Positions 11,971 through 24,145 of a DNA stretch of 32,000 bases are shown here, piece by piece. The stretch is taken from positions 110,738-142,737 of the forward strand of contig CANFLV010000009.1 of the NCBI GenBank assembly GCA_947448025.1, read 5' to 3'. Positions within the stretch are counted from its first letter, which is position 1. The number at the start of each line of letters is the position of its first letter. The notes under the pieces are model-generated. The model saw only the letters and a program-made list of their open reading frames with translations, was not told the origin of the DNA and ran no database searches. A program made the translations under genes and the position numbers. Source of the stretch: Oxalobacteraceae bacterium (lineage in GTDB: Bacteria; Pseudomonadota; Gammaproteobacteria; Burkholderiales; Burkholderiaceae_D).

Positions 11971-13788
11971 ATGTGCGGCATCGTCGGCGCAGTAGCGCAA
12001 CGCAATATCACCCCAATCTTGCTCGAAGGCCTGAAACGGCTCGAATACCGCGGCTATGACTCCTGCGGCGTGGCACTGCATGTCGATGGCCAGCTGCAGC
12101 GTTCGCGCAGCACCTCGCGCGTGGCAGATCTCGAGCAACAGATTGCGCAATCGGGACTGGCCGGCTTCACCGGTATCGCCCATACGCGCTGGGCCACGCA
12201 CGGCGCACCAGCGTCGCACAATGCGCATCCGCATTTTTCGCGCGAGCGCATCGCCCTGGTTCATAACGGCATCATCGAGAACCATGAAGAATTACGCGCC
12301 GAACTGACGGCGCTCGGCTATGTTTTTGAGAGCCAGACCGATACCGAAGTCATCGCCCATCTGGTCGACCACATGTATTCAGGCGACCTGTTCGAGACCG
12401 TGCAGCAGGCCGTCAAACGACTGACCGGCGCGTATGCGATTGCGGTGTTTTCACGCGACGAGCCACACCGCGTCATCGGCGCACGGCAAGGCTCACCGCT
12501 GATCGTCGGCGTCGGTAAAGGCGAGAACTTCCTCGCCTCGGACGCGATGGCGCTGGCCGGCACGACGAACCAGATTATTTATCTCGATGAAGGCGATGTG
12601 GTTGACTTGCAGATGCAGCGCTACTGGATTGTCGACGCGAACGGCAAATCGGTCGAGCGCGAAGTGCGCACCGTACATGCGCATTCGGGTGCGGCTGAAC
12701 TCGGGCCATATAGGCACTACATGCAAAAGGAAATCTTTGAGCAACCGCGCGCCATCGGCGATACGCTTGAGGGCGTCACCGGCATCATGCCGGAGCTGTT
12801 CGGCGACAAGGCCTACGGGATTTTCAAGCAGATTGATTCGGTGCTGATCCTCGCCTGTGGCACCAGCTATTACGCCGGCCTGACGGCGAAATACTGGATT
12901 GAAGCGATCGCCAAAATTCCGGTCAATGTCGAGATCGCCAGCGAATACCGCTACCGCGACAGCGTGCCCAATCCGCAGTCGCTGGTCGTGACGATTTCGC
13001 AAAGCGGCGAGACCGCCGACACGCTCGCCGCGCTCAAGCATGCGCGCAGCCAAGGCATGCTCCACACACTCACCGTTTGTAATGTCGACACCAGCGCGAT
13101 GGTGCGAGAATGCGCGCTGGCCTACATCACGCGCGCCGGCATCGAGGTCGGCGTGGCCTCGACGAAAGCCTTCACGACCCAGCTGGCTGCGCTGTTCCTG
13201 CTGACTCTTTCGCTGGCGCAGGTCAAGGGACGCCTCAGCGACGCCGCAGAAAGCGCTTACCTGAAACAGATGCGCCATTTGCCGCTGGCGATTTCAGCCG
13301 TGCTGGCGCTTGAACCACAGATCATCGCCTGGTCCGAAGATTTCGCAAGGCGTGAAAACGCGCTTTTCCTCGGGCGAGGCCTGCATTATCCGATCGCACT
13401 GGAAGGCGCCTTGAAGCTCAAGGAAATCAGCTACATTCACGCCGAAGCGTATCCGGCAGGCGAACTGAAACACGGTCCGCTAGCACTGGTAACAGACCAA
13501 ATACCAGTGGTGACGATCGCACCGAATGACACCCTGATTGAAAAACTGAAGTCGAACATGCAAGAAGTGCGCGCACGCGGCGGACAGCTGTATGTCTTCG
13601 CCGATGCCGATTCACGCATTACGCCCAGCGAAGGCGTGCATGTGATCCGCCTGCCGGAGCATTATGGCCAGCTCTCGCCTATCCTGCATGTGGTGCCGCT
13701 GCAGCTGCTGGCGTATCACACGGCGCTGGCGCGTGGAACCGATGTTGACAAGCCGCGTAATCTGGCAAAGTCCGTCACAGTGGAGTAG
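11971..13788 (+). CDS. glmS: Glutamine--fructose-6-phosphate aminotransferase (isomerizing)
   Basis: 605 aa. The protein starts with the catalytic MCGIVGAV, has two SIS domains, and ends in the canonical KSVTVE. GAGG SD is present. Confidence 0.97.
13769..13787 (+). repeat. attL core: 19-bp direct repeat within the last glmS codons
   Basis: AGTCCGTCACAGTGGAGTA here versus AGTCCGTCACGGTGGAGTG at 23839-23857 (17/19). Both encode SVTVE plus a stop. Confidence 0.8.
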
Positions 13789-13808
13789 TTCAGCTAGTGA
13801 GTAATTTT
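13788..13808. repeat. Left terminal inverted repeat of the island (P' arm)
   Basis: gttcagctagtgagtaatttt matches the reverse complement of 23817-23837 (gttcagctcgtgagtaatttt) at 20/21 positions. Confidence 0.8.
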
Positions 13809-14102
13809 GACGATATTTCAGCACTTTTGTTGGTCGTTAAACTGAAAACACAGGCTCTTTACATTGGACCCTATACAACTAGTCAGCGACGACTGTTTAA
13901 TAGGGTCTTTTTGTTGCGCGAGCGAGATAAATTAACTTTTGAGGCAATCGCTAAGCTGTTGACGAGGTCAGGTACACGGTCTGCGAAAGGCTGCTTGCTA
14001 GGCGCTGAGCATGTCTTTTCTATCTACAAGAAAGGCAGACTTAGGCAAGAACGACTCACTTTGAAGGTTAAACCAGAGTTAATGGACCTGTGGCTTGAAT
14101 GA
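13797..14102 (+). CDS. Small putative DNA-binding protein at the island's left end (possible regulator or recombination directionality factor)
   Basis: 101 aa with a GTG start. The GGAG of the glmS terminal codons sits about 11 nt upstream. It is a distant paralogue of ORF 23855-24145 (shared ...L.LR....IA......G....G......VFSI.KK....ERL). Confidence 0.5.
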   Translation: MSNFDDISALLLVVKLKTQALYIGPYTTSQRRLFNRVFLLRERDKLTFEAIAKLLTRSGTRSAKGCLLGAEHVFSIYKKGRLRQERLTLKVKPELMDLWLE

Positions 14103-14314
14103 TGTCCTTTAACAGGACATCGTTGGATATCACCGTTTGATGTCTGTTCTATTTGGAATATCCGTGTCGTCACGGGACACTTGCGCTTTGAATACACTCA
14201 GGACCAGCTAGAACCGCCGCTGCGCAGTTTTCGCTATTAAATGCGCACAAAGATGCTGCGCAAAGAAAAACTACTCAAAACGCAATTAAGGTGTCGCAGA
14301 TTGGATGTGCGGTT

Positions 14315-14599
14315 TCAAGTGTCACGACGAAGCTGCTCAGCATCCAGCTTTTGAAATTCAAGATTCGCTCTCTTTTGCATCGTCTCAACACGATCCTTAG
14401 CAACGCGAATGTCATGCTTAGTGGGCTGAGTAATGTTTGATTGCCTTCCGAGCAGTGTCGTTAGCCCGTTAATCATATCGCTTTGTTTAAGCTGCACGGG
14501 TAGCGGGACTGCTGGTACGCGGTGCTTCTTGTTTTGTGGCTTCGCCAGAGTGGTTGTGATGAATTCATGAATGCGCATGAATCTATTTATCTTGCTCAA
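14315..14599 (-). CDS. Hypothetical protein (94 aa), overlapping the upstream wHTH gene by 17 nt
   Basis: ORF only. It overlaps the stop region of 14583-14960, which suggests co-translation. I recognise no motif. Confidence 0.4.
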   Translation of the reverse strand: MSKINRFMRIHEFITTTLAKPQNKKHRVPAVPLPVQLKQSDMINGLTTLLGRQSNITQPTKHDIRVAKDRVETMQKRANLEFQKLDAEQLRRDT

Positions 14600-14960
14600 T
14601 ACATTGCAGATAAGTGTTCAATACAACATTTTTGTATGACTCAAATGCATCGGTGAGTCTCTTTGTAGCCATGATATACCGACAGCGTTTGTCATCAGTG
14701 TCGCAAACAACCTCGCACCAACCGCCTACAATAAACTGCTCCAGTACATTTCTGACGCCACGCTCACTGTATTTCAATGTGCTGAACAGACGCTTAAGTG
14801 TCAAAGGCTTCAAGGTACAGCTACAGTGCGCTATGAGAATAAACAGGTCAAAAGCAACGCGACTTTGACTCAGAGGGAGGTTGCGCTCCTCCCAAAGTCG
14901 TATATCAATTACGCCTTTGGAAAACTTTGAAGTAACAGTTCTGATTTCGCTTGTACCCAT
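14583..14960 (-). CDS. MarR-like winged-helix transcriptional regulator
   Basis: 125 aa. The segment LTLKRLFSTLKYSERGVRNVLEQFIVGGWCEVVCDTDDKRCRYIMATKRL fits the MarR HTH-wing pattern (D-x-R in the wing). Confidence 0.5.
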   Translation of the reverse strand: MGTSEIRTVTSKFSKGVIDIRLWEERNLPLSQSRVAFDLFILIAHCSCTLKPLTLKRLFSTLKYSERGVRNVLEQFIVGGWCEVVCDTDDKRCRYIMATKRLTDAFESYKNVVLNTYLQCIEQDK

Positions 14961-15010
14961 CTGCTTTTAGTAAGTCAGACGAGCGTATTCCCACCCCAAT
15001 AAAATTCCTA

Positions 15011-15202
15011 CTATTTTTGCATGCAATTAATGCCTGCAAAAATTGCAGATATTTTAGCTTGCTTCCGATACCGACATAGAACACATTTAATAGCCAAAAT
15101 TAAAATAGTTACAACACCTCCTATTATTAAAATAAAAATCAACTGTGAGGCGAAAAAATAATACATTATTAGAAATAGAAAAATAAATGGATAACATGAC
15201 AT
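15011..15202 (-). CDS. Tiny two-span hydrophobic membrane protein (63 aa)
   Basis: The ORF consists almost entirely of two hydrophobic stretches. The region is AT-rich, so a chance ORF cannot be excluded. Confidence 0.3.
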   Translation of the reverse strand: MSCYPFIFLFLIMYYFFASQLIFILIIGGVVTILILAIKCVLCRYRKQAKISAIFAGINCMQK

Positions 15203-15256
15203 CGTTAAATGTGATCACCGGATGTCTGCTTTGGCTCCAATTCAAGTGGAATAAAA

Positions 15257-15517
15257 ATGAATGAAAAATCAATTAGAGAAAAGAAAATCAAAGAATGCTT
15301 GCAAGGACTTGAGAACATTCATCAAGTCATTGAATCAACCAAATTAGATAACGAAAAATGGCGTGAAGAGGCAGCGAAATCCTTTGAGCGTCAGCTTTCA
15401 GCGCTTCGTTTATGGCAGTCAGAGAGTAGATTATTAAAAAATTATCAAATTGCATTCATATCATTTGCGGGCGTCTTAGCTGGTGGAGTTTTAGGCGTAA
15501 TTATTAAATATAGTTAG
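15257..15517 (+). CDS. Small coiled-coil protein with C-terminal TM anchor (86 aa)
   Basis: A charged heptad-like N-terminal region is followed by YQIAFISFAGVLAGGVLGVII at the C terminus. Confidence 0.4.
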   Translation: MNEKSIREKKIKECLQGLENIHQVIESTKLDNEKWREEAAKSFERQLSALRLWQSESRLLKNYQIAFISFAGVLAGGVLGVIIKYS

Positions 15518-15543
15518 TAAATTTATTGATTTCAGGATTTTAA

Positions 15544-16146
15544 ATGAAATGCGTCAATTGCAATAATTGGTATATGAAAAATACCGATAAATTTTGCTCT
15601 GAATGTGGAGCCAATCAGAAAATTGAATCAAATAAATTTACAAATTTGGAAATCCAATATAATAAATCTAATTTTCAATCAACTTCAACATCGACATTAA
15701 AAATTTTAAAAATATTAATATTAATTTTGGTGACTGTATTCACATTGTTATTCGCACTTGGCACTATGGTGGATTCAAGAATAAATTCATTTGAAAAGGG
15801 ATCTAATTATAGATGGCATAAAGGTTCATGTTCTATATTCCAAGAAACTAAAGTAAAGTGCCTGAATGAGATGGACTACAAGTACCTGTGCAAACACAGT
15901 GATGGTTTTACCTACTTTGCGCTAATGGAACTAGCCGTAAGAAATCAAGTGTATTCAATAGCGAGAGAAGCATCAAATTTACATAAAGAAATTTTTTGGA
16001 CTGGATCTAACGAGTGCCGCGCTTCAATTACAGCTACTGCAATTATTCGCGGAAATTCATCAGCAGATACAACAACTGGTGTAGTAGAAGAGTTTCATAT
16101 TTCAGAAGACGGTGAAATTTTAGTCGCTAGTTGGTCGGGCATTTAA
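15544..16146 (+). CDS. Zinc-ribbon / single-TM protein with ~125-aa C-terminal domain of unknown function
   Basis: N-terminal CxxC...CxxC (MKCVNCNNWYMKNTDKFCSECGANQ), a TM helix (ILKILILILVTVFTLLFALGTMV), and a Cys-containing C-terminal domain. AGGA SD is present. Confidence 0.6.
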   Translation: MKCVNCNNWYMKNTDKFCSECGANQKIESNKFTNLEIQYNKSNFQSTSTSTLKILKILILILVTVFTLLFALGTMVDSRINSFEKGSNYRWHKGSCSIFQETKVKCLNEMDYKYLCKHSDGFTYFALMELAVRNQVYSIAREASNLHKEIFWTGSNECRASITATAIIRGNSSADTTTGVVEEFHISEDGEILVASWSGI

Positions 16147-16316
16147 TAAATCAACAACTAACCTAATAACAGATAGCTTAATGCTATTAAATTATCCCCA
16201 ATAAATAAATTATAGATGCCAATATAAATTTCTTGCAAATTAATGAAAATTAGATATAAATTTCAAAGTGAGATAATCAATTTGAATTTTCTAAATTAAA
16301 TATATCCCTTTATGCA

Positions 16317-16628
16317 ATGTTGCAATTCAATCTAACTGTCAGTCAGGCAACTAACCACTCTGAAGAAGATGCGGCTAAATACTCAGTCGTTTTAGTGTTT
16401 TTATTTGGTAGAACCGAAATGCCAGATGCTATGCATTCCTATTTTCAAGCTGCGAAACTACTAGATAAAAATGCGACTGAAATAATTGGATTAGTTTCTA
16501 AAAAATCAATAATGAATACCGAAGTCGATGTTATTTCGTTTTGCAATAAGCAAAGATCGGAATACGATTATTTGAACCACATGACAAAAGGCAAACGGAA
16601 TGTATTGAAGTACTTAGACAGTTTTTAA
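16317..16628 (+). CDS. Hypothetical protein (103 aa)
   Basis: ORF only, in an AT-rich region. Confidence 0.3.
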   Translation: MLQFNLTVSQATNHSEEDAAKYSVVLVFLFGRTEMPDAMHSYFQAAKLLDKNATEIIGLVSKKSIMNTEVDVISFCNKQRSEYDYLNHMTKGKRNVLKYLDSF

Positions 16629-16932
16629 AAATAATTAATTTGCCAATGATTAACCATTTTCACATTTCGAAAGTAATCGACCAAAAATATTTTTCGAATA
16701 TTTTTAATTTGCAAAATGACAAAATTCTTACAATTAATTTTAAAAGCATTTTTCTGACACCTCAAGTTCTTTCCTAGTCTTTAAATGATATTTTTCGATC
16801 GATCAGTGAGCGCTTTTACTTATAGTTCAGCCGCGAAAAGCGTTTTAATCTCTACTTTAGTTTTTCAGTTGTAATCCGTCTTAGCAACAACACATTCCCA
16901 ACCTTATAGAGGCGAATGAACATTAGTTTTGC

Positions 16933-17045
16933 CTGATGGATTCCGTCGTCAATGATTTATTTTCTTGCCATAGCCTTGCCATCACGCAACACGATGCGAG
17001 TGCTAGTAATATATGTATTGAATTAAGTAGTTAGCCCTGTATTTT
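16933..17045 (+). repeat. Copy 1 of a 113-nt diverged direct repeat (relic of a duplicated coding segment)
   Basis: An ungapped hand alignment with 17420-17532 gives 77/113 identical positions. One shared reading frame is conserved at the protein level (..AITQ.DA.S.NICIE..). Confidence 0.6.
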
Positions 17046-17180
17046 TTAATCTACTTTAAAAATCAGAGAGCAGAATATTGAAAAGCCATCAGATAACTCT
17101 TAAATCAGCAGTAAGGTTACTGGTAGAATATTTTGTGATTCATTACTAAATACCTCCAAATATAAAATCGAGGATTAAAT

Positions 17181-17423
17181 ATGAAATGTGTTAGTTGCAA
17201 TAATTGGTATATGAAAAATACTGATAAATTCTGTACTGAGTGTGGAGCATCTCAGAATGTATCTCAGAATGCCGCTCAAAATTTTACACAAAATGCCGAA
17301 CCGGTGAATTCAATTTTCAACAGCGAGAAGCCGAAATTTTCAATGGTTAAAATAATATTATACTTATTAACCATATATTTCGCTATTTACATATTTAGGG
17401 CAGTATTCCTCAGTATGTTCTGA
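17181..17423 (+). CDS. Zinc-ribbon / single-TM protein, short paralogue of 15544-16146 (possibly truncated by frameshift)
   Basis: The N-terminal sequence MKCVSCNNWYMKNTDKFCTECGASQ is nearly identical to the paralogue. The first ~75 nt are highly similar, and the AGGA SD is conserved. A TM helix sits at the C terminus. Confidence 0.55.
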   Translation: MKCVSCNNWYMKNTDKFCTECGASQNVSQNAAQNFTQNAEPVNSIFNSEKPKFSMVKIILYLLTIYFAIYIFRAVFLSMF

Positions 17424-17532
17424 TTGACGCCATCGGCGACGAAAGGCATTTTCGCCATTGTCGTGCTATCACGCAAGACGATGCGCACAGTGGCAATATA
17501 TGTATTGAGATTGGTGGTGAGCTCTGTGATTT
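17420..17532 (+). repeat. Copy 2 of the 113-nt diverged direct repeat
   Basis: See 16933-17045. It lies in an open frame (17399-17656) that has no start codon and is -1 relative to the 17181-17423 gene. Confidence 0.6.
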
Positions 17533-17639
17533 TCATGCATGTATTTATCTACGCATGAAGTACGGAACCAGCAATAGCTGGCAGTTGTTCTCTCACAAGA
17601 TAATTGAGCCTCCCTTTACTAGACGCTCGGCATTGTCAA

Positions 17640-18086
17640 TCATTTGGCAAATCTAGCCTTCACCGAATCCGCGGCTTGCTCAATCTGCACATCAAGCGAG
17701 CCATCCAGAACAGCTTCCTGCAAGCGACTTAGAACCGCAAGCAGTTCATCGCCATTCGCGACTTCAACCGCATTCTTCCCTTTCGCCAAGTCAATCACCT
17801 TGTTGCCGTAGAAAATCTGTACAGCAAGCTTCTTAGTATCAACTTGAACAAACCACCATTGCTTGACGCGCTTGTTTATTTCTACCAGTGAAGTCATGCC
17901 AGTAACTTCATTGCGCACATTTCGCGTCCGTTTCACCGTGAACATTTCGTCTTTGCTCATCGCCTGAGCCATTGCAATCTGCACCTTCAATTTTTCATTC
18001 AATTTATTACGCCTGAAAACTACCGGATCAACTGTACTTTGGCGCTTCGCATTGACTAATTTCAGACTTGAAAGAATTGCACTCAT
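17640..18086 (-). CDS. Hypothetical protein (148 aa), divergent from the Rep-like gene
   Basis: A clean ORF with balanced composition (MSAILSSLKLVNAKRQSTVDPVVFRRNKLNEKLKVQIAMA...). I can name no motif. Confidence 0.5.
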   Translation of the reverse strand: MSAILSSLKLVNAKRQSTVDPVVFRRNKLNEKLKVQIAMAQAMSKDEMFTVKRTRNVRNEVTGMTSLVEINKRVKQWWFVQVDTKKLAVQIFYGNKVIDLAKGKNAVEVANGDELLAVLSRLQEAVLDGSLDVQIEQAADSVKARFAK

Positions 18087-18201
18087 TGAAATTTCCTTGT
18101 GTATTGATGTGTGTAATCATTTTCGTTCCGAATCTCCTTGATTCCTAGCCTGGATCATTTGGTTATTTCACGGTATTCATTGGTTTGGCATAAATAAACT
18201 A

Positions 18202-18753
18202 ATGATGATCCCAATAGATAAATTTCAAGAAAAGCACTTCGAAATACTAGATAAATTTCGCTCAAAGAATGAGGAATGGATTTTGCAACATCAACATCTG
18301 ATCACACATTCATTAACATTGACATTTGATTGCCGACATCTACTTCGTACTCTGAACAAATACCAAAGTTCGCAAACTCTTAATCATCCAGATGTAGTTG
18401 AATGGCTTCAAGCAAGCATGAGGTATTTTAAGAATAGGCTTAATAAATCACTGTATGGAAATCGACGCGGGAGAATTTTACTGATACCCGTTATTGAAGG
18501 ACTTGGAATAGATCAAAAGCCACACTACCACTGCCATCTTGGCGTTAGTAAAGATCGATTCGATGCAGTTGAAGCAAAGGTAAAAAGTATTTGGAAGGAA
18601 GTTCCGTTTGGTGGAACTCAAGTCGTAGTCAAACCATATAGAGATCATGGATGGGTTGGCTATTCTACAAAGAACACTTTGTTCGCAAACAGGGAGAGCA
18701 TCGATTGGATGAATATCCTCCTGCCCACATGTTCTTCATCTACTGCTGAGTAA
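18202..18753 (+). CDS. Small HUH-superfamily Rep/relaxase-like protein (putative rolling-circle initiator)
   Basis: Three ordered motifs: SLTLTF (motif I-like), KPHYHCHLGV (HUH motif) and GWVGYSTKN (YxxK catalytic Tyr motif). 183 aa. Confidence 0.5.
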   Translation: MMIPIDKFQEKHFEILDKFRSKNEEWILQHQHLITHSLTLTFDCRHLLRTLNKYQSSQTLNHPDVVEWLQASMRYFKNRLNKSLYGNRRGRILLIPVIEGLGIDQKPHYHCHLGVSKDRFDAVEAKVKSIWKEVPFGGTQVVVKPYRDHGWVGYSTKNTLFANRESIDWMNILLPTCSSSTAE

Positions 18754-19224
18754 TTGCTCCTTTGGATGAGGCGAAAGGGATCAGTTGATTCTTTAATAGC
18801 GGAGCCATGTCAATTTTCTGAAAGATCGCAATCAATGCTGTAAGGCTAGCAACTAGGTCTTTACTGAAGGTGATGTACAAGGCATGGCAAGCAAGAACTC
18901 AACGACAATTAAATATGCGCAGAAACAGGATCAATAATTGGTTGGCTCGCGCAAAATCATCGGGATAGTAATCAAGTGTACAGATATCGATTAGATCCAC
19001 GCATAAGCGATTTTCTTAAGTTAGTGACCTAGGCATTTGCAAACTGGCTTATCTTTTAAATTCAGTCAGCAGCGAAATCAAAGCAAATGTAAATTTCATT
19101 TGATTATTCGCTAACTCATTGAATTCATTAAACATCCAATATTTCACCTAAAGACTTGTCCGACCTAATCAATGGGTTCAGAATAAATACAGATCAATCA
19201 TTTGATATGTAAGGGAAATCTAAA

Positions 19225-19827
19225 ATGGCACAAGCAAAAGTACTGAATGAAAAAGAAGTCCGCAAAGTATTGCTCTATATCGCTGCACGCAAACATGCTG
19301 CCAGAAATCGGGCAATGTTCACGCTGTTGAATTTCACTGGTATGCGGGTCGGTGAGTTGGCAGCACTTCGTTTGTGCGATGTCTTGTCAAAGGACGGCGG
19401 CATTCGTGAAGAAATCTATTTGTCTGTAGATCAGACGAAGGGATCAAAGGGGCGCACAGTTGTTGTGTCGCAAAAAGCGCAGGAAGAAATCAGGAACTAC
19501 CTGCAAGCCCGCTTTAAACTGAAAGACTTACTGGCGGTGACAATGACAGACACAGGTCGTGCTCTGTTCACGACACAGAAAGAGCCGAATCGCGGCTTCA
19601 CTGCGTCAACATTAGCGCAGCACTTTCATTACATGTACAAAGGCGCAGGCATCACTGGCGCAAGCTCACACAGTGGTCGTCGTGGCTTCATCACGAACCT
19701 GGCGAACATGGGCGTATCAGTTCGCGTGTTGATGGAACTCGCTGGTCACAAGTCGCTGGCTGTGACGCAGAAATACATTGATGTAAATCCCAAGATGATG
19801 CGTTCAGCAGTGGAATTGCTCGGATAA
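19225..19827 (+). CDS. Tyrosine site-specific recombinase, catalytic domain only (200 aa)
   Basis: Catalytic signature in order: R in TGMRVGELAAL, K in TKGSKGRTV, HxxR in HSGRRGF, H in AGHKSL, and Y in TQKYIDV. There is no N-terminal SAM-like core-binding domain. AGGGA SD is present. Confidence 0.8.
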   Translation: MAQAKVLNEKEVRKVLLYIAARKHAARNRAMFTLLNFTGMRVGELAALRLCDVLSKDGGIREEIYLSVDQTKGSKGRTVVVSQKAQEEIRNYLQARFKLKDLLAVTMTDTGRALFTTQKEPNRGFTASTLAQHFHYMYKGAGITGASSHSGRRGFITNLANMGVSVRVLMELAGHKSLAVTQKYIDVNPKMMRSAVELLG

Positions 19828-19832
19828 AGAAA

Positions 19833-19852
19833 AAGCCAGCAGTAGCTGGCTT
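19833..19852. terminator. Bidirectional terminator between the convergent recombinase and H-NS-like genes
   Basis: aagccagc / gctggctt stem with loop agta. There is a good T-run on the minus strand (TTTTTCTTT) and a weak one on the plus strand. Confidence 0.6.
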
Positions 19853-19873
19853 GTTCACAAGGAAAATATTCAC

Positions 19874-20164
19874 TTAGATTTCAAACTGAGCGCGATCTTT
19901 ACCTTCCATCCATTTCGGCGTTCTACCGCGCCCTGACCATGTCAAACCAGTTGCTGGATCACGATACTTGGGCATGACCTTGCTTTCAGTGCTGACCTTA
20001 CGAGCGCGCTTAGCGCCGCCAAAAATGTCATCGGCAGTTAGATGATATTCAGCAATGATCGCTTTAATTTTACTGATGGCATCAGAAAGTTCATTCTGGC
20101 GCACTTGATCGATTTGTGCTTCGAGTGCTTCTTTTTGCTTGATGAGTTCTGCGAGCGTGGACAT
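19874..20164 (-). CDS. H-NS-family nucleoid-associated protein (Burkholderiales Bv3F/H-NS-like)
   Basis: 96 aa. It has an N-terminal coiled coil (LIKQKEALEAQIDQVRQNE) and a C-terminal DNA-binding motif, KYRDPATGLTWSGRGRTPKW. GGAG SD is present. Confidence 0.85.
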   Translation of the reverse strand: MSTLAELIKQKEALEAQIDQVRQNELSDAISKIKAIIAEYHLTADDIFGGAKRARKVSTESKVMPKYRDPATGLTWSGRGRTPKWMEGKDRAQFEI

Positions 20165-20203
20165 GTTTTGTTACTCCGTTAATAAATTTTTCTAGCCATT
20201 ATA

Positions 20204-20902
20204 TTACTCTGGAAAGCGTCCTTGGCGTACGGCGTCAATAATTTCGTTTGCTTTACGAAGATATCTACTTACAGCATTGATGGCAGTTGCGCTATCTAAA
20301 ACATTTATCTTATCGAGATCGCTCCGATTTAAGTCCATCGCAAGTGGTGATGGTAGTTTATCGACTTTCCACAAATTATTTTTATATCGCTTCTCTCGTT
20401 CCAAATAGAACTTACGGACTGACTTTAACAACTCACGCGATGTTGGCTTTTGACCATTCGTGATTTCAAGGAGTTTTTTGTTCTGATCGAAAGTATGCAA
20501 GTAAGCACGATATGTTGACGGTCTAATTTCAGCGCCGAGACGAACGCGTAACTGACTCAATTCAATTGGTTGATGACCGATTTCCATCAGAAATTTTCGA
20601 ACTTGTTCACCGATCTGTGTGCTTGTCTGTGATTTTGGCACGCGCAAAAGGTAAGTTACATCATCTGCCTTGCCTTCGTCAATTTGCTCAACCAAGGATG
20701 GAGTTAAGGAGATTACTTTTTTCCCGATTTCTTCCCACCATTTATCGAATTTATAAGTTTCGATATTACCCCACTCCCTATAAAGGTCGATTTTTACTTT
20801 CGACTTATCTTCTGCAATTGCTCTTCGTAAGAATTCGAACCAAAGTCTATAAGCTTCTTTGCTCTGAGCGCGTGGTGCGCGTTGTATTTTTTGGATTGTC
20901 AT
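20204..20902 (-). CDS. Hypothetical protein (232 aa) with Trp/Phe-rich N-terminal motif YRLWFEFLRR
   Basis: A clean ORF, divergent from 21164-21958 across a repeat-containing intergenic region. No SD. The motif is reminiscent of regulators on mobile elements, but I cannot assign a family. Confidence 0.45.
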   Translation of the reverse strand: MTIQKIQRAPRAQSKEAYRLWFEFLRRAIAEDKSKVKIDLYREWGNIETYKFDKWWEEIGKKVISLTPSLVEQIDEGKADDVTYLLRVPKSQTSTQIGEQVRKFLMEIGHQPIELSQLRVRLGAEIRPSTYRAYLHTFDQNKKLLEITNGQKPTSRELLKSVRKFYLEREKRYKNNLWKVDKLPSPLAMDLNRSDLDKINVLDSATAINAVSRYLRKANEIIDAVRQGRFPE

Positions 20903-20953
20903 TTATAAATTAATTAAATGTGAAAAAGTTAATTATTGATCTTCTTAAATCAA

Positions 20954-21013
20954 CGAGTCAATAACTCACTTATGAGATATTTGAGAATTACATTTTTCTA
21001 TATTATGGGTCTA
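20954..21013 (+). promoter_or_regulatory. Copy 1 of a ~60-bp direct repeat in the divergent promoter region
   Basis: cgagtcaataactcacttatgagatatttgagaatta... is repeated exactly 100 bp downstream. The first 37 nt match at 31/37. It contains a TTGAGA -35-like hexamer. Confidence 0.5.
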
Positions 21014-21053
21014 TTGATTGATTAACTCTTGCTTAAAGATTTTAATTTGTTAG

Positions 21054-21113
21054 CGAGTCAATAACTGACTTTTCAAATATTTGAAAAATAGTGTTTTTTG
21101 CATAATAGAGTCT
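21054..21113 (+). promoter_or_regulatory. Copy 2 of the ~60-bp direct repeat in the divergent promoter region
   Basis: cgagtcaataactgacttttcaaatatttgaaaaata... contains TTGAAA, a 16-nt spacer, then TAATAG, a promoter-like arrangement facing 21164-21958. Confidence 0.5.
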
Positions 21114-21163
21114 GAATCAATTAATTATAACTTTAAATACAACCACTTAAATAAGGCACTCAT

Positions 21164-21958
21164 ATGAACAACATCGCTCAAAGTAACATTATTACTCTTC
21201 AAGATAATGAAAAAACTCAACATGAATTTGTAACATTATGCTTAAACACTACAAATTTAAAAATGCAAAAAGATGACTACATATCTTCATTTAATTCGTT
21301 CGCAGCAAAAGCCGCTCAAACCACACTTGAAATGTGTCGTGTTGTCCAAGAAGCGAAAGTTGATTTAGACAAAAATAATTTTGAAAGCTTTTGTCAGGCA
21401 ATCGGTCACAGAAGTAACGATAGCACAATTCGAAAATATCTCGCTATCGGCGCAAGGTATTCTGAACTTCATGCAGTTGCTGATCGCTTACCTAATTCAT
21501 GGACTAGCATTTATTTAATTACAATGATTCCTCCTGAAAAATTATTGACTATGATAGACGATGTGAATTCATTTAAAAATATGACTGCACAAAAGATTAA
21601 GCAATTAATATCAACCGATAATGCGTCGTCAGAAAAGACCGTCAATAATTCATTGCTTGAAAATGCAGCAGTGTCAATTTATTTCGAAAAATCGCCGTCA
21701 ATTATTGAATGGAATACTTTAAAGATGCAATTGAAGGCAATTTCAGGATTCGACTCGTTAAAAATACGCATCGAATTTTCAAATAAATTCGAAAAAATTC
21801 ATGAGCATTCAAAAAATAATAATCGTGATGCTGCGAAGCGAACTCGTGAAATAAAAGCAGAGACGAAAAAAAATGTCGATGAAAAAAATTATGTCTACAA
21901 TCCAGCCTTTGACTATGGTGGTGCATATGATTTTGATCTAGGTGAATTCATTTCTTAA
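21164..21958 (+). CDS. Hypothetical protein (264 aa), possibly DUF3102-like DNA-binding protein
   Basis: The segment AAQTTLEMCRVVQEAKVDLDKNNFESFCQAIGHRSNDSTIRKYLAIGARY resembles the plasmid/phage DUF3102 pattern as I recall it. The C-terminal region is Lys-rich. AAGG SD is present. Confidence 0.45.
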   Translation: MNNIAQSNIITLQDNEKTQHEFVTLCLNTTNLKMQKDDYISSFNSFAAKAAQTTLEMCRVVQEAKVDLDKNNFESFCQAIGHRSNDSTIRKYLAIGARYSELHAVADRLPNSWTSIYLITMIPPEKLLTMIDDVNSFKNMTAQKIKQLISTDNASSEKTVNNSLLENAAVSIYFEKSPSIIEWNTLKMQLKAISGFDSLKIRIEFSNKFEKIHEHSKNNNRDAAKRTREIKAETKKNVDEKNYVYNPAFDYGGAYDFDLGEFIS

Positions 21959-21983
21959 AAAAGGCAGCTTCGGCTGCTTTTTT
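21957..21983 (+). terminator. Rho-independent terminator
   Basis: aaaaaaggcagc ttcg gctgctttttt hairpin immediately after the stop codon. Confidence 0.8.
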
Positions 21984-22133
21984 ATGTCCATTTTCTGTTC
22001 CATTTAGAACTTCTCTTTCCCGACGAATTTAAATAAAAATTCATTCAAATTTTACTTCTCATCGGATAGATATTTTTGAACAAAGGCGCTATGCTTTGTT
22101 ACAACTATTCATTATCAAATTTGGAATTATTCC

Positions 22134-23801
22134 GTGGTCAACACATTTCCCGTCAAGACTACCCTTCACATCTATACCCGCGTCTCCAGCGTGGCACAGG
22201 CTGAGCAAGGTACCTCACTTGAGTCTCAGCGCGACCTCGGAATCAAGAAGGCAAATGATCTTGGATTTGAATTCAAGGTCTGGAACGAAGGTGGTCATAG
22301 CTCGCATCATGAAGACATTGCCGACCGTCCAGAGCTGAATTCACTGTATGTGGCGATGCAGGCGGGTCAAGTAAAGCATGTGTGGGTCTATGACCCTTCT
22401 CGTATTTCACGAAATGACCAAGTTGCCTCTGCATTCAGGTATGCATGCAGCAAGCATGGTGTCACGCTCTATACAAAGGACGGAGTTTTTGACCTTTCCA
22501 ATCCAAACGACAAGTTTTTGAAGCAATTGCTGGACGCTGTTGCTGAATTTGATAATGTCACACGAGCAGAGAGGACGCGCCTCGGAAAACTAAACCGTGT
22601 TCGTTCCGGTAGTTGGCATGGCGGACAGGCACCTTTTGGCTATAAGTTAGAAGACCGAAAGTTAGTTGTCGTTGAAGAAGAAGCAAAGTGGGTTAAACGC
22701 ATCTTTCAAGAATTGGTCAAAGGCAGTGCGGCAACTCACATTAAACAAATCCTTGATTCCAATGGTGTCAGTCCGCGCCGGAAGAAAGGATTATGGACGC
22801 TCGGATCAATCAATGCGCTGCTGACGAATACGCACTACTCCGGACATTACCTCTATACCGACAAGAAGTCCGAGCAAACGATTGAAGTTCAATGTCCAAG
22901 CATCGTTGATCAGACGACATGGAATGCGGCTCAATACAAACGCTCACGCGAAGTGATCAGACAGTCACAGAAGAACGCCACGGAAAAGAATTTTTACCTT
23001 CTTCGGGACTTGATGTTTTGCGAACATTGCGGTCGCGCTATCAGTGGTCGGATGAACAAGTCTCGCGCAGAATCTAGTTACTACTGCCCGAACAAAGAGC
23101 GTGCATGGGCAAAGAATGGCGGATCAGAGACGCCGTGGAGGCGTGGCACAGGTTGCGGATTTGATCGCGCCATGAACATTCCGCAGACAGACAAGTTGGT
23201 CTGGGAATTGGTCACATCGCTTCATTCAAAGTCCAGCATCCTGAAAGAAGAAGTCAAACACCGATTGCTCAACCAGAATGGCGTGAAAATTCGTACTGAT
23301 GCTGAAATCAGGACAATTCAAGCCAAGCTGCGAAAGTTGCAGAAGAATTACAAGCTCATCAGCGAAACACTCGGCAATCTTGAGGCAAACAAGTTGATCG
23401 GCAAGATCAATGATGTCAGTTACGAGACCACTGTGCAGCGAATTCGGGAAGAACTAGGCAGCATTGAAACCGAACTTGCCAACGCAAGGCTTGAATTGGC
23501 GGGAACGGCGGAATCACGGAAGTGGGTGAACTGGTTGAAGGCGTTTGGCGAAGAAGTAGAGATGCTGGACGCGTTGACCGATGGAGAGAAAAAGGAGTAC
23601 ATCGGTGGCTTGGTAAAGCGGATTGATGTGCGTTACAGCAACGACAACCGTGAACACATACTCACTCTGACGATGCAGTTACCCATCGTCAATGACGGTA
23701 TCAAAAAGCTACGGTCTGGGCAAGAAGGTCGGGAATACGAAGTGACGCCCGGAACAGAAACCATTACCGTGGCATCCAAAAAAAAAGACCGGCGCGGCTA
23801 G
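22134..23801 (+). CDS. Large serine recombinase (integrase-type)
   Basis: 555 aa with a GTG start. It has an N-terminal resolvase catalytic domain (LHIYTRVSSVAQAEQGTSLESQ, VWVYDPSRISRN) and a recombinase domain (WHGGQAPFGYKL). A zinc-ribbon (CEHCGRAISG...YYCPN) and a long coiled coil follow. Confidence 0.92.
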   Translation: MVNTFPVKTTLHIYTRVSSVAQAEQGTSLESQRDLGIKKANDLGFEFKVWNEGGHSSHHEDIADRPELNSLYVAMQAGQVKHVWVYDPSRISRNDQVASAFRYACSKHGVTLYTKDGVFDLSNPNDKFLKQLLDAVAEFDNVTRAERTRLGKLNRVRSGSWHGGQAPFGYKLEDRKLVVVEEEAKWVKRIFQELVKGSAATHIKQILDSNGVSPRRKKGLWTLGSINALLTNTHYSGHYLYTDKKSEQTIEVQCPSIVDQTTWNAAQYKRSREVIRQSQKNATEKNFYLLRDLMFCEHCGRAISGRMNKSRAESSYYCPNKERAWAKNGGSETPWRRGTGCGFDRAMNIPQTDKLVWELVTSLHSKSSILKEEVKHRLLNQNGVKIRTDAEIRTIQAKLRKLQKNYKLISETLGNLEANKLIGKINDVSYETTVQRIREELGSIETELANARLELAGTAESRKWVNWLKAFGEEVEMLDALTDGEKKEYIGGLVKRIDVRYSNDNREHILTLTMQLPIVNDGIKKLRSGQEGREYEVTPGTETITVASKKKDRRG

Positions 23802-23816
23802 ACACTAACGCCCCAA

Positions 23817-23837
23817 AAAATTACTCACGAGCTGAAC
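23817..23837. repeat. Right terminal inverted repeat of the island (P arm)
   Basis: aaaattactcacgagctgaac; its reverse complement matches 13788-13808 at 20/21. Confidence 0.8.
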
Positions 23838-23838
23838 C

Positions 23839-23857
23839 AGTCCGTCACGGTGGAGTG
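23839..23857 (+). repeat. attR core: second copy of the glmS-terminal 19-mer
   Basis: AGTCCGTCACGGTGGAGTG, 17/19 identical to 13769-13787. Confidence 0.8.
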
Positions 23858-24145
23858 ATCCCGGAAGGACCTCTTCCCCAGAGGTCCGCTGAACCACCTC
23901 TCACATCTCTCATCATTAGCAGCGGACCAGTCACTCTCGACATTCGTCCGCTGAGTCCTTACCAGCAAGAGCTGATCGACACGATCCTGAAGCTAAGGGC
24001 TGCTCATTGGTCGGACCGTCAGATCGCAAACCACTTCAATCTTTTCGGCTGGATGACGCCGAGAGGACATCCCTTCATTCCCCAAAGTGTTTTCTCGATC
24101 CGGAAGAAGTATGCGAAGCGGTTAGAGAGACTTGGCGGGAAATGA
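23855..24145 (+). CDS. Paralogue of the island left-end small protein (relic of a second, truncated element)
   Basis: 96 aa with a GTG start inside the attR core. The segment LSPYQQELIDTILKLRAAHWSDRQIANHFNLFGWMTPRGHPFIPQSVFSIRKKYAKRLERL aligns with 13797-14102. It occupies the same position relative to the core repeat. Confidence 0.45.
   Translation: MIPEGPLPQRSAEPPLTSLIISSGPVTLDIRPLSPYQQELIDTILKLRAAHWSDRQIANHFNLFGWMTPRGHPFIPQSVFSIRKKYAKRLERLGGK

What the first reader, a model, noticed from the sequence alone, without database searches (positions are those of the whole stretch)
23817..23858. The island ends reconstruct a dyad-symmetric attP
Seen directly: the 21 nt just inside the right core (23817-23837, aaaattactcacgagctgaac) are the reverse complement of the 21 nt at and just after the left core's final G (13788-13808, gttcagctagtgagtaatttt), with a single mismatch.

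Joining the two ends across the core gives arm(21) - c - core - arm(21).

Inference: this is the imperfect inverted-repeat architecture expected for a serine-integrase attP. It supports the exact boundaries and suggests the element is still excision-competent. It also gives a defined attP/attB pair targeting a universally conserved gene end, which is of potential use as a genome-engineering tool.
Basis: seen in the sequence. Interest (0 to 1): 0.65.

Follow-up and report, generated by a model that had tools for sequence, protein, structure and literature searches.

The report
Serine-integrase attP split across a glmS island
The two ends of a 10-kb foreign island inserted at the end of the essential gene glmS really are the two halves of a mirror-symmetric docking site for the island's own serine integrase; this is an ordinary kind of mobile-element site, but it belongs to a widespread integrase family, not found described in the papers searched, that always cuts at the same two bases of glmS.

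Summary
13788-13808 and 23817-23837 are reverse complements (20/21; none expected by chance). Joined, the ends give a 62-bp site: 30 nt, AC, 30 nt, with the dyad axis in the middle of AC (13777-78 and 23847-48, the Thr codon of glmS ...SVTVE*).

The island (13779-23846, 31-45% GC) encodes an intact large serine recombinase (22134-23801) 15 nt from the right arm.

Comparative evidence supports the attP reading:
- All 27 relatives of this recombinase with readable flanks (27-83% identity; several proteobacterial classes) carry an arm plus a glmS-end mimic.
- In 12 islands bounded at both ends, the arms are symmetric about the same AC. They co-vary (12.75/14 matches within islands, 8.44/14 between; permutation 0/20000).
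- attL and attR differ at -1 in 9/12 and at +1 in 9/12, and on both sides in 5. Only AC is shared, as expected for a 2-bp serine crossover.
- Two environmental contigs carry the uninterrupted P-AC-P' junction. One is a unit-length circular permutation of a related island.

Excision of this particular copy is not shown: every contig of this population has it integrated. Verdict: real, a new member of a known kind.

The parts
11971..13788 (+). glmS (605 aa). It carries the attB left half-site in its last codons. Its final 7 coding nt and its stop codon (13779-13788) are supplied by the island.
   Evidence: ORF and translation. Pfam GATase/SIS on the identical gene in L001. The C-terminus ...NLAKSVTVE* is kept after insertion.
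13747..13808 (+). attL: B half (13747-13776, glmS codons), crossover dinucleotide AC (13777-13778), P' half (13779-13808 = AGTGGAGTAG + arm TTCAGCTAGTGAGTAATTTT).
   Evidence: The P' half is identical or near-identical in L007, L008, L032 and in the free attP of L047.
13779..23846 (+). Island body, 10,068 bp, which with one copy of AC gives a 10,070-bp unit. GC is 31-45% against about 58% in the flanks.
   Evidence: Composition profile. Boundaries from attL/attR. Identical island in other metagenome and MAG contigs.
13797..14102 (+). Small conserved ORF at the P' end (101 aa as listed). The true start is probably the TTG at 13830, which is Met12 in homologues. Three-helix, HTH-like. Candidate accessory factor (directionality factor or regulator); function unknown.
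   Evidence: Homologue at the same end of islands in L007, L008, L012, L013, L019, L021, L022, L032, L033, L035. 221 database homologues, all unnamed. Alignment. AF2 model pLDDT 71.6. No significant fold match. No Pfam, PHROG or NCBIfam family.
19225..19827 (+). 200-aa tyrosine recombinase, catalytic domain only. Part of the backbone in close relatives; not the integrase of this site.
   Evidence: PF00589, 3.4e-27. Xer-like. No homologue inside 7 of 12 bounded islands that have the same att architecture.
22134..23801 (+). Large serine recombinase (555 aa), the integrase.
   Evidence: Resolvase + Recombinase + Zn_ribbon_recom. phrog_95 integrase, 8e-79. Invariant R16/S18 in the YxRVS motif. Distant match to SPbeta, PhiC31 and A118 integrase structures.
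23817..23878 (+). attR: P half (23817-23846 = arm AAAATTACTCACGAGCTGAA + CCAGTCCGTC), crossover AC (23847-23848), B' half (23849-23878 = original glmS end GGTGGAGTGA + downstream).
23855..24145 (+). Relic: 96-aa paralogue of the small ORF, preceded by a degenerate P'-like arm (TCCCGGAAGGACC). Left-end remnant of an older island of the same superfamily.
   Evidence: 29% identity to the 101-aa ORF, E 6e-5. 45% to the small ORFs of L022 and L028. Homologues sit directly after attR in L012, L028, L035 and L049. Arm resemblance to L022/L027 TCCCGTTAGGGGGTA.

Best explanation
The two 21-nt arms are the outer parts of the two half-sites (P and P') of the attP of a 10.07-kb integrative element. They were separated when the element's large serine recombinase (LSR, 22134-23801) recombined attP with an attB that straddles the glmS stop codon.

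Reconstructed attP: AAAATTACTCACGAGCTGAACCAGTCCGTC-AC-AGTGGAGTAGTTCAGCTAGTGAGTAATTTT.

Inferred mechanism, by analogy with characterised LSRs:
- An LSR dimer binds each att site.
- All four strands are cut at the central AC, the first two bases of the Thr codon in ...Ser-Val-Thr-Val-Glu-stop.
- The subunits rotate and the strands are religated.

The inner 10 nt on each side of AC in attP imitate the glmS end (CCAGTCCGTC / NGTGGAGTAG). Insertion therefore rewrites the last codons synonymously and supplies a new stop codon, leaving GlmS unchanged.

Shown by sequence: the symmetry, the register, the LSR, conservation and co-variation across islands, restriction of attL/attR identity to AC, and natural uninterrupted attP junctions in relatives.

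Inferred only: LSR binding, cleavage chemistry, directionality, and current activity of this copy.
For: 1. The inverted repeat is real and non-random.

2. An intact LSR with all three domains and the catalytic Ser lies next to the P arm.

3. Every relative with a readable 3' flank has an arm followed by TCNGTNAC-NGTNGARTRR. These came from the genome scan (LSR 29-83% identity; Limnohabitans, Polaromonas, Polynucleobacter, Methylophilaceae, Nitrosomonadales, Marinomonas, Lysobacter, SAR116).

4. In 12 islands with both ends, the arms match at 245/312 positions when the axis is placed in the middle of AC. With the axis shifted by 1-3 bp the count is 62-100/312.

5. Arm sequences differ between subfamilies but the two arms of one island agree: 12.75/14 against 8.44/14, permutation 0/20000. 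This is expected if one protein dimer reads both arms.

6. attL and attR differ at position -1 in 9/12 islands and at +1 in 9/12. They differ on both sides in L008, L012, L022, L027 and L019, so only AC is common. AC is non-palindromic.

7. A 10,032-bp metagenome contig (L047) carries LSR, then AAAATTACTCACTACCTGAACCAGTCCGTC-AC-CGTGGAGTAGTTCAGCTAGTGAGTAATTTT, then the small ORF, with no glmS. Its -1 base matches the attR type and its +1 base the attL type of its closest integrated relative L008. Its two ends map 176 bp apart in that island, so it is a unit-length circular permutation.

8. A 15-kb IMG/VR contig with a 27.5%-identical LSR has an equivalent uninterrupted site, and no glmS in the 11.3 kb held.

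9. [quoted passage not shown]
Against: - There is no biochemical or read-level evidence for this copy.
- All contigs of this population are in the integrated state: 11/11 with this GlmS and 16/16 with this TonB receptor. No empty site was found.
- The symmetric region here (62 bp) is longer than the 40-50 bp usual for characterised attP sites. The outermost 6 nt are symmetric only in some subfamilies.
- The reconstructed attB shows essentially no dyad symmetry (3-12/25), and no zinc-ribbon-domain motif could be recognised in it.
- Positions -1 and +1 are codon wobble positions. Post-integration drift could contribute to some mismatches, although L047 argues against this.
- L047 has no terminal overlap, so a circle is not proven. 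A tandem-array junction would look the same, and such arrays exist (L033).
Confidence: 0.9

Rival explanations
1. The att sites are genuine but this copy is a fixed, no longer mobile resident. It would lack a working directionality factor or expression, so the symmetry reflects history rather than present excision competence.
For: Only integrated forms were seen in all contigs of this population. No attP of this exact sequence was found in viral or metagenome scans; the single metagenome hit is a relative with 78% nucleotide identity over the LSR gene. No recognisable directionality factor is present. Decayed relatives exist: L027, 1.76 kb with a truncated LSR, and the relic at 23855-24145.
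Against: The LSR ORF is full length with invariant catalytic residues. Both arms are intact at 20/21. Assemblies rarely capture rare excised circles, so their absence is weak evidence.
Confidence: 0.35
2. The outer arms, or part of them, are operator sites for the small HTH-like protein encoded at the P' end (a regulator or excision factor) rather than, or in addition to, LSR-binding motifs.
For: The small ORF is co-conserved with the LSR across the whole clade and abuts the P' arm. Its model is a three-helix bundle with weak resemblance to HTH DNA-binding domains. Symmetry in the window subfamily reaches +/-30, beyond the usual LSR footprint.
Against: The fold matches are not significant (all E > 1). 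The arm positions -24..-11 and the dyad centred on the crossover fit the standard LSR half-site layout. Characterised LSRs need no accessory protein for attP x attB recombination (PMC3556126).
Confidence: 0.07
3. The 200-aa tyrosine recombinase (19225-19827) is the integrase, and the arms are its core-type binding sites flanking an overlap region.
For: A PF00589 catalytic domain is present and conserved in close relatives.
Against: Seven of 12 bounded islands with the same att architecture contain no homologue of it, whereas all contain the LSR. Tyrosine recombinases need an identical 6-8 bp overlap (established knowledge), but attL/attR identity is only 2 bp in five islands. The protein also lacks any N-terminal DNA-binding domain.
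Confidence: 0.02
4. The arms are terminal inverted repeats of a transposon using the glmS-downstream hotspot (Tn7-like).
For: glmS is the classical Tn7 attachment region (established knowledge), and the element has terminal inverted repeats.
Against: No DDE transposase or Tns-like proteins appear among the island ORFs. The junction lies inside the Thr codon, 9 nt upstream of the stop, not about 25 bp downstream of it. There is no 5-bp target duplication. Instead the flanking repeats are polymorphic mimics that share only AC across the family.
Confidence: 0.01

Closest known systems
Phage-type large serine integrases and their att sites (A118/LI, PhiC31, Bxb1, TP901-1, SPbeta SprA)
   Same: Resolvase + recombinase + zinc-ribbon domain order. 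attP is an imperfect dyad centred on a non-palindromic 2-bp crossover. Identity with attB is needed only at those 2 bp. The integrase gene lies next to attP. The A118 reference values are in PMC3556126.
   Different: Only a remote sequence relationship: best PDB match E 1.4e-9 to SPbeta integrase, at most 27% identity to any deposited phage and at most 25% to any plasmid record. Hosts are mostly freshwater Beta- and Gammaproteobacteria. The target is the glmS stop region, with codon mimicry on both sides of the crossover. The dyad extends to 62 bp. attB has almost no symmetry.
SCCmec / CcrAB integration into the 3' end of rlmH (orfX)
   Same: Serine recombinase(s) insert an island into the last codons of a conserved housekeeping gene while preserving the reading frame. 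The island is flanked by direct repeats with inverted repeats just inside, and tandem or composite arrays form at the site (my knowledge of SCC elements). There is a weak NCBIfam resemblance to CcrA/B/C.
   Different: A single LSR rather than a CcrA/CcrB pair. Scores are far below the Ccr cut-offs (72-75 bits against 700-900). The target gene and host phylum differ.
Tn7 / TnsD (and some CRISPR-associated transposon) homing to attTn7 at glmS
   Same: The highly conserved 3' end of glmS is used as a safe, near-universal landing site without inactivating the gene (established knowledge).
   Different: The chemistry is entirely different: DDE transposition with a 5-bp duplication about 25 bp downstream of the stop, against conservative serine recombination inside the Thr codon. 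No Tns proteins are present here.

Membership tests
Large serine recombinase (LSR) integrase / att system | Recombinase with an N-terminal resolvase catalytic domain (Ser nucleophile), a recombinase domain and a zinc-ribbon domain | tested here: met
   PF00239 1.3e-19, PF07508 1.5e-15, PF13408 1.7e-4. R16/S18 are invariant in 14 homologues. phrog_95 integrase 8e-79.
Large serine recombinase (LSR) integrase / att system | attP of about 40-50 bp or more with imperfect dyad symmetry centred on the crossover | tested here: met
   30 + AC + 30 with 24/30 symmetric positions in the window. 245/312 at register 0 against 62-100/312 when shifted, over 12 islands.
Large serine recombinase (LSR) integrase / att system | Strand exchange at a central non-palindromic dinucleotide; attP/attB identity required only there | tested here: met
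   By comparison only. The nearest attL/attR mismatch is at -1 in 9/12 and at +1 in 9/12 islands, and on both sides in 5. The free attP of L047 agrees. The cleavage chemistry itself is not testable with these tools.
Large serine recombinase (LSR) integrase / att system | An uninterrupted attP exists on the free or excised element | tested here: inconclusive
   Found for relatives: L047 (LSR gene 78% nucleotide identity, unit-length permutation) and L054/L055. Not found for this exact element. Circularity was not proven.
Large serine recombinase (LSR) integrase / att system | attB of about 40 bp with its own imperfect dyad and zinc-ribbon motifs placed closer to the centre than in attP | tested here: inconclusive
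   Reconstructed attB sites show 3-12/25 symmetric positions, about chance. The right half beyond the stop codon is unconserved among hosts.
Large serine recombinase (LSR) integrase / att system | Unidirectional attP x attB reaction reversed by a directionality factor | not testable with these tools
   The only candidate is the conserved small ORF 13797-14102, which has no recognised family or fold.
Tn7-like transposon at attTn7 | TnsA/B/C/D-type proteins, a 5-bp target duplication, and insertion downstream of the glmS stop codon | tested here: not met
   No such families among the island ORFs. The junction is inside the Thr codon, with no 5-bp duplication.
Tyrosine-recombinase integrative element | A tyrosine integrase in every member and an identical 6-8 bp overlap region between att sites | tested here: not met
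   A Tyr-recombinase homologue is absent from 7/12 bounded islands. Identity is reduced to 2 bp in 5 islands.
SCC-type cassette (CcrAB/CcrC) | Ccr recombinase equivalogues and the rlmH target | tested here: not met
   CcrA/B/C scores are 52-75 bits against cut-offs of 700-900. The target is glmS.

The most novel reading that the evidence does not exclude
This island represents a deep clade of large serine recombinases that was not found described in the papers searched. Members share less than 30% identity at the extremes and occur across Beta-, Gamma- and Alphaproteobacteria and in virus-like contigs. All home to the same AC dinucleotide in the glmS ...SVTVE* end, making the clade a serine-recombinase counterpart of Tn7's attTn7 homing. 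The target requirement would lie essentially in the universally conserved coding half-site. The family could then supply broad-host-range landing-pad integrases, and it would naturally build tandem arrays at glmS. A subclade in which the asymmetric centre is inverted relative to the element body would be a natural demonstration that the central region alone sets insertion orientation.
Probability: 0.45. Interest if true: 0.6.

Novelty: new member of a known kind. Interest (0 to 1): 0.45.

Why it matters
The result gives a precise, comparatively validated attP (62 bp) and crossover dinucleotide for an uncharacterised serine integrase. Its natural target is the end of glmS, a gene present with nearly the same C-terminal codons in almost all bacteria.

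Related islands sit in hosts whose sequences downstream of the stop codon are unrelated. The family therefore seems to need little beyond the conserved coding half-site, which is what a broad-host-range, marker-free landing-pad tool complementary to Tn7 would require.

Biologically, it shows that glmS is a hotspot exploited by a second, mechanistically unrelated class of mobile element. These elements accumulate in tandem there.

The mechanism itself (attP dyad, 2-bp crossover) is textbook.

Tried and rejected
- **Empty site.** I looked up contigs encoding exactly this GlmS (11 contigs) and exactly the neighbouring TonB receptor (16 contigs). All carry the island. The 96-aa flank ORF is not on record.
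- **Free attP of this element.** The junction pattern found nothing in viral contigs. In metagenome contigs it found only a relative, L047. An ACTCAC-type general attP pattern found nothing in viral contigs.
- **Closest LSR homologues on 11-12 kb contigs (P0002, P0013).** These turned out to be integrated forms, not circles.
- **Function of the small ORF.** No Pfam, PHROG or NCBIfam family. The AF2 model is usable only for residues 28-90. Foldseek against the PDB gave no match with E < 1.
- **A third glmS-end copy in the window**, which would bound the relic. None was found.
- **Deposited phages and plasmids.** No LSR above 27% identity.
- **Literature.** Five searches combining glmS with serine recombinase/integrase terms found only papers that mention Tn7 and serine integrases as separate tools. 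This is a weak negative, because most subscription journals are not in the library.
- **Explanations rejected.** Tn7-like transposon, tyrosine-recombinase site and chance repeat were considered and rejected (see rivals).
- **attB motif search by eye.** I looked for an attB zinc-ribbon-domain motif shifted about 5 bp inward and saw no convincing match.

Full report
**1. The observation**

The left junction reads ...AAGTCCGTCACAGTGGAGTAG|TTCAGCTAGTGAGTAATTTT. The right junction reads AAAATTACTCACGAGCTGAAC|CAGTCCGTCACGGTGGAGTGA.

The 21-nt arms 13788-13808 and 23817-23837 are reverse complements with one mismatch. A search allowing 3 mismatches finds only these two copies in 32 kb, against 0.00 expected in shuffles. 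An independent repeat search extends the pair to 27 nt at 89% (I3). The chance of at least 20/21 at one fixed register is 1.5e-11.

**2. Surroundings**

- glmS (11971-13788) ends ...NLAKSVTVE*.
- Between the two glmS-end copies lies a block of 31-45% GC in a roughly 58% GC context.
- Its last gene (22134-23801) is a 555-aa large serine recombinase (LSR). It has Resolvase, Recombinase and zinc-ribbon domains and matches phrog_95 integrase at 8e-79. The catalytic R16/S18 are invariant among homologues. It has only remote similarity to the SPbeta, PhiC31 and A118 integrase structures.
- Its stop codon is 15 nt from the right arm.
- Other island genes: a catalytic-domain-only tyrosine recombinase, an H-NS-like protein, DUF6641, a weak Rep-like protein, and unknowns.
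- No transposase is present.

**3. Geometry**

Joining the ends gives AAAATTACTCACGAGCTGAACCAGTCCGTC-AC-AGTGGAGTAGTTCAGCTAGTGAGTAATTTT. That is exactly 30 nt, AC, 30 nt, with 24/30 symmetric positions.

The AC (13777-78 in attL; 23847-48 in attR) is the start of the Thr codon of ...SVTVE*. This is expected if DNA to the right of AC is element-derived in attL and host-derived in attR.

**4. Relatives**

The LSR has hundreds of homologues. A genome scan returned 29 loci with 29-83% identity, from Limnohabitans, Polaromonas, Polynucleobacter, Methylophilaceae, Nitrosomonadales, Marinomonas, Lysobacter, SAR116 and others. Every locus with a readable flank shows an arm followed by TCNGTNAC-NGTNGARTRR.

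Twelve islands, ranging from 1.8 to 10.9 kb, have both ends in hand. Three results follow.

- *Register.* Arm-to-arm matches are 245/312 with the axis in the middle of AC. They fall to 62-100/312 with the axis shifted by 1-3 bp.
- *Co-variation.* Arm sequences differ among subfamilies (ACTCACTAGCTGAA, ACCCCCGTTGGAAA, AACACTCTTCCGAA and so on), yet the two arms of one island agree. Matches are 12.75/14 within islands against 8.44/14 between islands, and 0 of 20000 permutations reach the observed sum.
- *Crossover.* attL and attR differ at -1 in 9/12 islands and at +1 in 9/12. They differ on both sides in L008, L012, L022, L027 and L019. The only sequence common to all pairs is AC.

Identity of only two bases excludes a tyrosine-recombinase overlap region. 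It matches the serine-integrase rule documented for A118: attP 50 bp, exchange between the central 2 bp, and those 2 bp alone set orientation (PMC3556126). AC is non-palindromic.

**5. Natural attP forms**

A pattern spanning the predicted junction found one metagenome contig, L047 (10,032 bp). It carries the LSR gene (78% nucleotide identity), then AAAATTACTCACTACCTGAACCAGTCCGTC-AC-CGTGGAGTAGTTCAGCTAGTGAGTAATTTT, then the small ORF, and no glmS.

Compared with its closest integrated relative (L008, Limnohabitans), its -1 base matches the attR type and its +1 base the attL type. Its two ends map 176 bp apart inside the L008 island, so it is a unit-length circular permutation. It has no terminal overlap, so a circle is likely but not proven; a tandem junction would look alike.

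A generalised pattern found a second case on a 15-kb, 30% GC IMG/VR contig with a 27.5%-identical LSR: ATACCCCCTGTCAGAGTCAATCGGTT-AC-AGTGGAATGATTCTGACGGGGGGTAT, followed by a small-ORF homologue. No glmS occurs in the 11.3 kb held.

**6. Which recombinase**

All bounded islands contain the LSR. Seven of the 12 contain no homologue of the tyrosine recombinase. L019 is a 3.1-kb island holding only the small ORF, a small resolvase and the LSR. The LSR is therefore the integrase.

**7. What is not shown**

- All 11 contigs with this exact GlmS and all 16 with the exact neighbouring TonB receptor carry the island.
- No empty site and no attP of this exact element was found.
- Excision competence of this copy is therefore open.
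- The reconstructed attB has no appreciable dyad symmetry (3-12/25). Sequence beyond the stop codon is unrelated among hosts. Recognition probably rests on the glmS coding half-site plus the last codons, but that is an inference.

**8. The right flank**

23855-24145 encodes a 96-aa paralogue of the island's small left-end ORF (29% identity, E 6e-5). It is preceded by TCCCGGAAGGACC, which resembles the P' arm of the L022/L027 subfamily. Homologues of this relic sit directly after attR in L012, L028, L035 and L049. L033 has three sites in series, with a P-AC-P' hybrid in the middle.

New islands thus insert into the attL of resident ones, which retains the glmS half-site, and older ones decay distally.

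**9. Comparison and novelty**

In mechanism and membership this is an LSR integrase/att system. The domain, dyad, central-dinucleotide and adjacency criteria are met. Unidirectionality and the directionality factor are untestable here.

It resembles SCCmec/Ccr in inserting into the 3' codons of a housekeeping gene. It resembles Tn7 only in the choice of glmS.

No related LSR above 27% identity exists among deposited phages or plasmids. Five literature searches found no description of a natural serine-recombinase element at glmS. That is a weak negative given the library's coverage.

It is a new member of a known kind, of moderate interest mainly as a family-level finding and a possible tool.

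Noticed in passing
L016 4820-4860, L017 12353-12390, L018, L019 1559/4666, L021 2691/12362: In a subclade (LSR about 52% identical, with an extra small resolvase gene upstream) the island sits in the opposite orientation relative to glmS. The LSR converges on glmS, and the glmS-end mimic next to the LSR is reverse-complemented. The asymmetric centre (AC plus about 10 nt each side) is inverted relative to the element body while the symmetric arms stay in place. This is a natural illustration that the centre sets orientation.
   Followed up: partly
window 23855-24145; L033 16563/7622/6281; L035 2093/11715/14534; L011 about 2500; L012 11756-12007; L049 222-422 and 8745-8972: Tandem accretion at glmS. 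A second small-ORF homologue or P'-like arm follows attR in several loci. L033 has a P-AC-P' hybrid site between two islands. The window retains only a roughly 0.3-0.7 kb relic of an older island.
   Followed up: partly
window 13797-14102 (alternative start TTG 13830): A small three-helix protein gene is co-conserved with the LSR across the whole clade, always at the P' end. In the integrated state it lies 8 nt after the glmS stop and so is probably read through from glmS. In the attP form it lies downstream of the LSR gene. Most homologues have Met at residue 12, and the 11 codons before it overlap the arm, so the annotated start is doubtful. Its function is unknown; it is a candidate directionality factor or regulator.
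   Followed up: partly
window 19225-19827: A 200-aa tyrosine recombinase consisting of the catalytic domain only (Xer-like, the size of Fim-type invertases). It is conserved in the backbone of close relatives but absent from 7 of 12 bounded islands. Its role is unknown; it might resolve multimers of a circular form.
   Followed up: partly
window 17640-18753: A DUF6641 protein (phrog_31551, 4.6e-22) and an adjacent 183-aa protein with a weak hit to the Rep ORF2/G2P family (E 3.6e-4, below the cut-off) are conserved in the backbone of relatives (L007, L047, L051, L053). This hints that the excised form might replicate.
   Followed up: no
window 15534-15620 and 17171-17257: An 87-nt direct repeat (84% identity) marks the starts of two paralogous small zinc-ribbon/transmembrane protein genes (15544-16146, 17181-17423) in the most AT-rich cargo region (about 31% GC).
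   Followed up: no
window 19874-20164 (-): An H-NS C-terminal-domain protein is encoded inside the AT-rich island. It may act as a self-silencing or xenogeneic-silencing factor.
   Followed up: no
window 23867-23887: A perfect 8-bp hairpin, GGACCTCT-TCCCC-AGAGGTCC, lies just downstream of attR with no T-run after it. It sits inside the relic region, and L028 has a partly similar flank.
   Followed up: no
L027 243-2000; L019 1559-4666: Very small family members. One is a 1.76-kb island whose LSR lacks about the first 46 residues and is probably a decayed deletion derivative. The other is a 3.1-kb island carrying only the small ORF, a small resolvase and the LSR.
   Followed up: no
L026, L028 (record titles): Lake-metagenome MAGs that carry these islands are titled 'Klebsiella pneumoniae' and 'Bordetella parapertussis'. 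These look like mislabelled taxonomy for freshwater Burkholderiales-type contigs.
   Followed up: no
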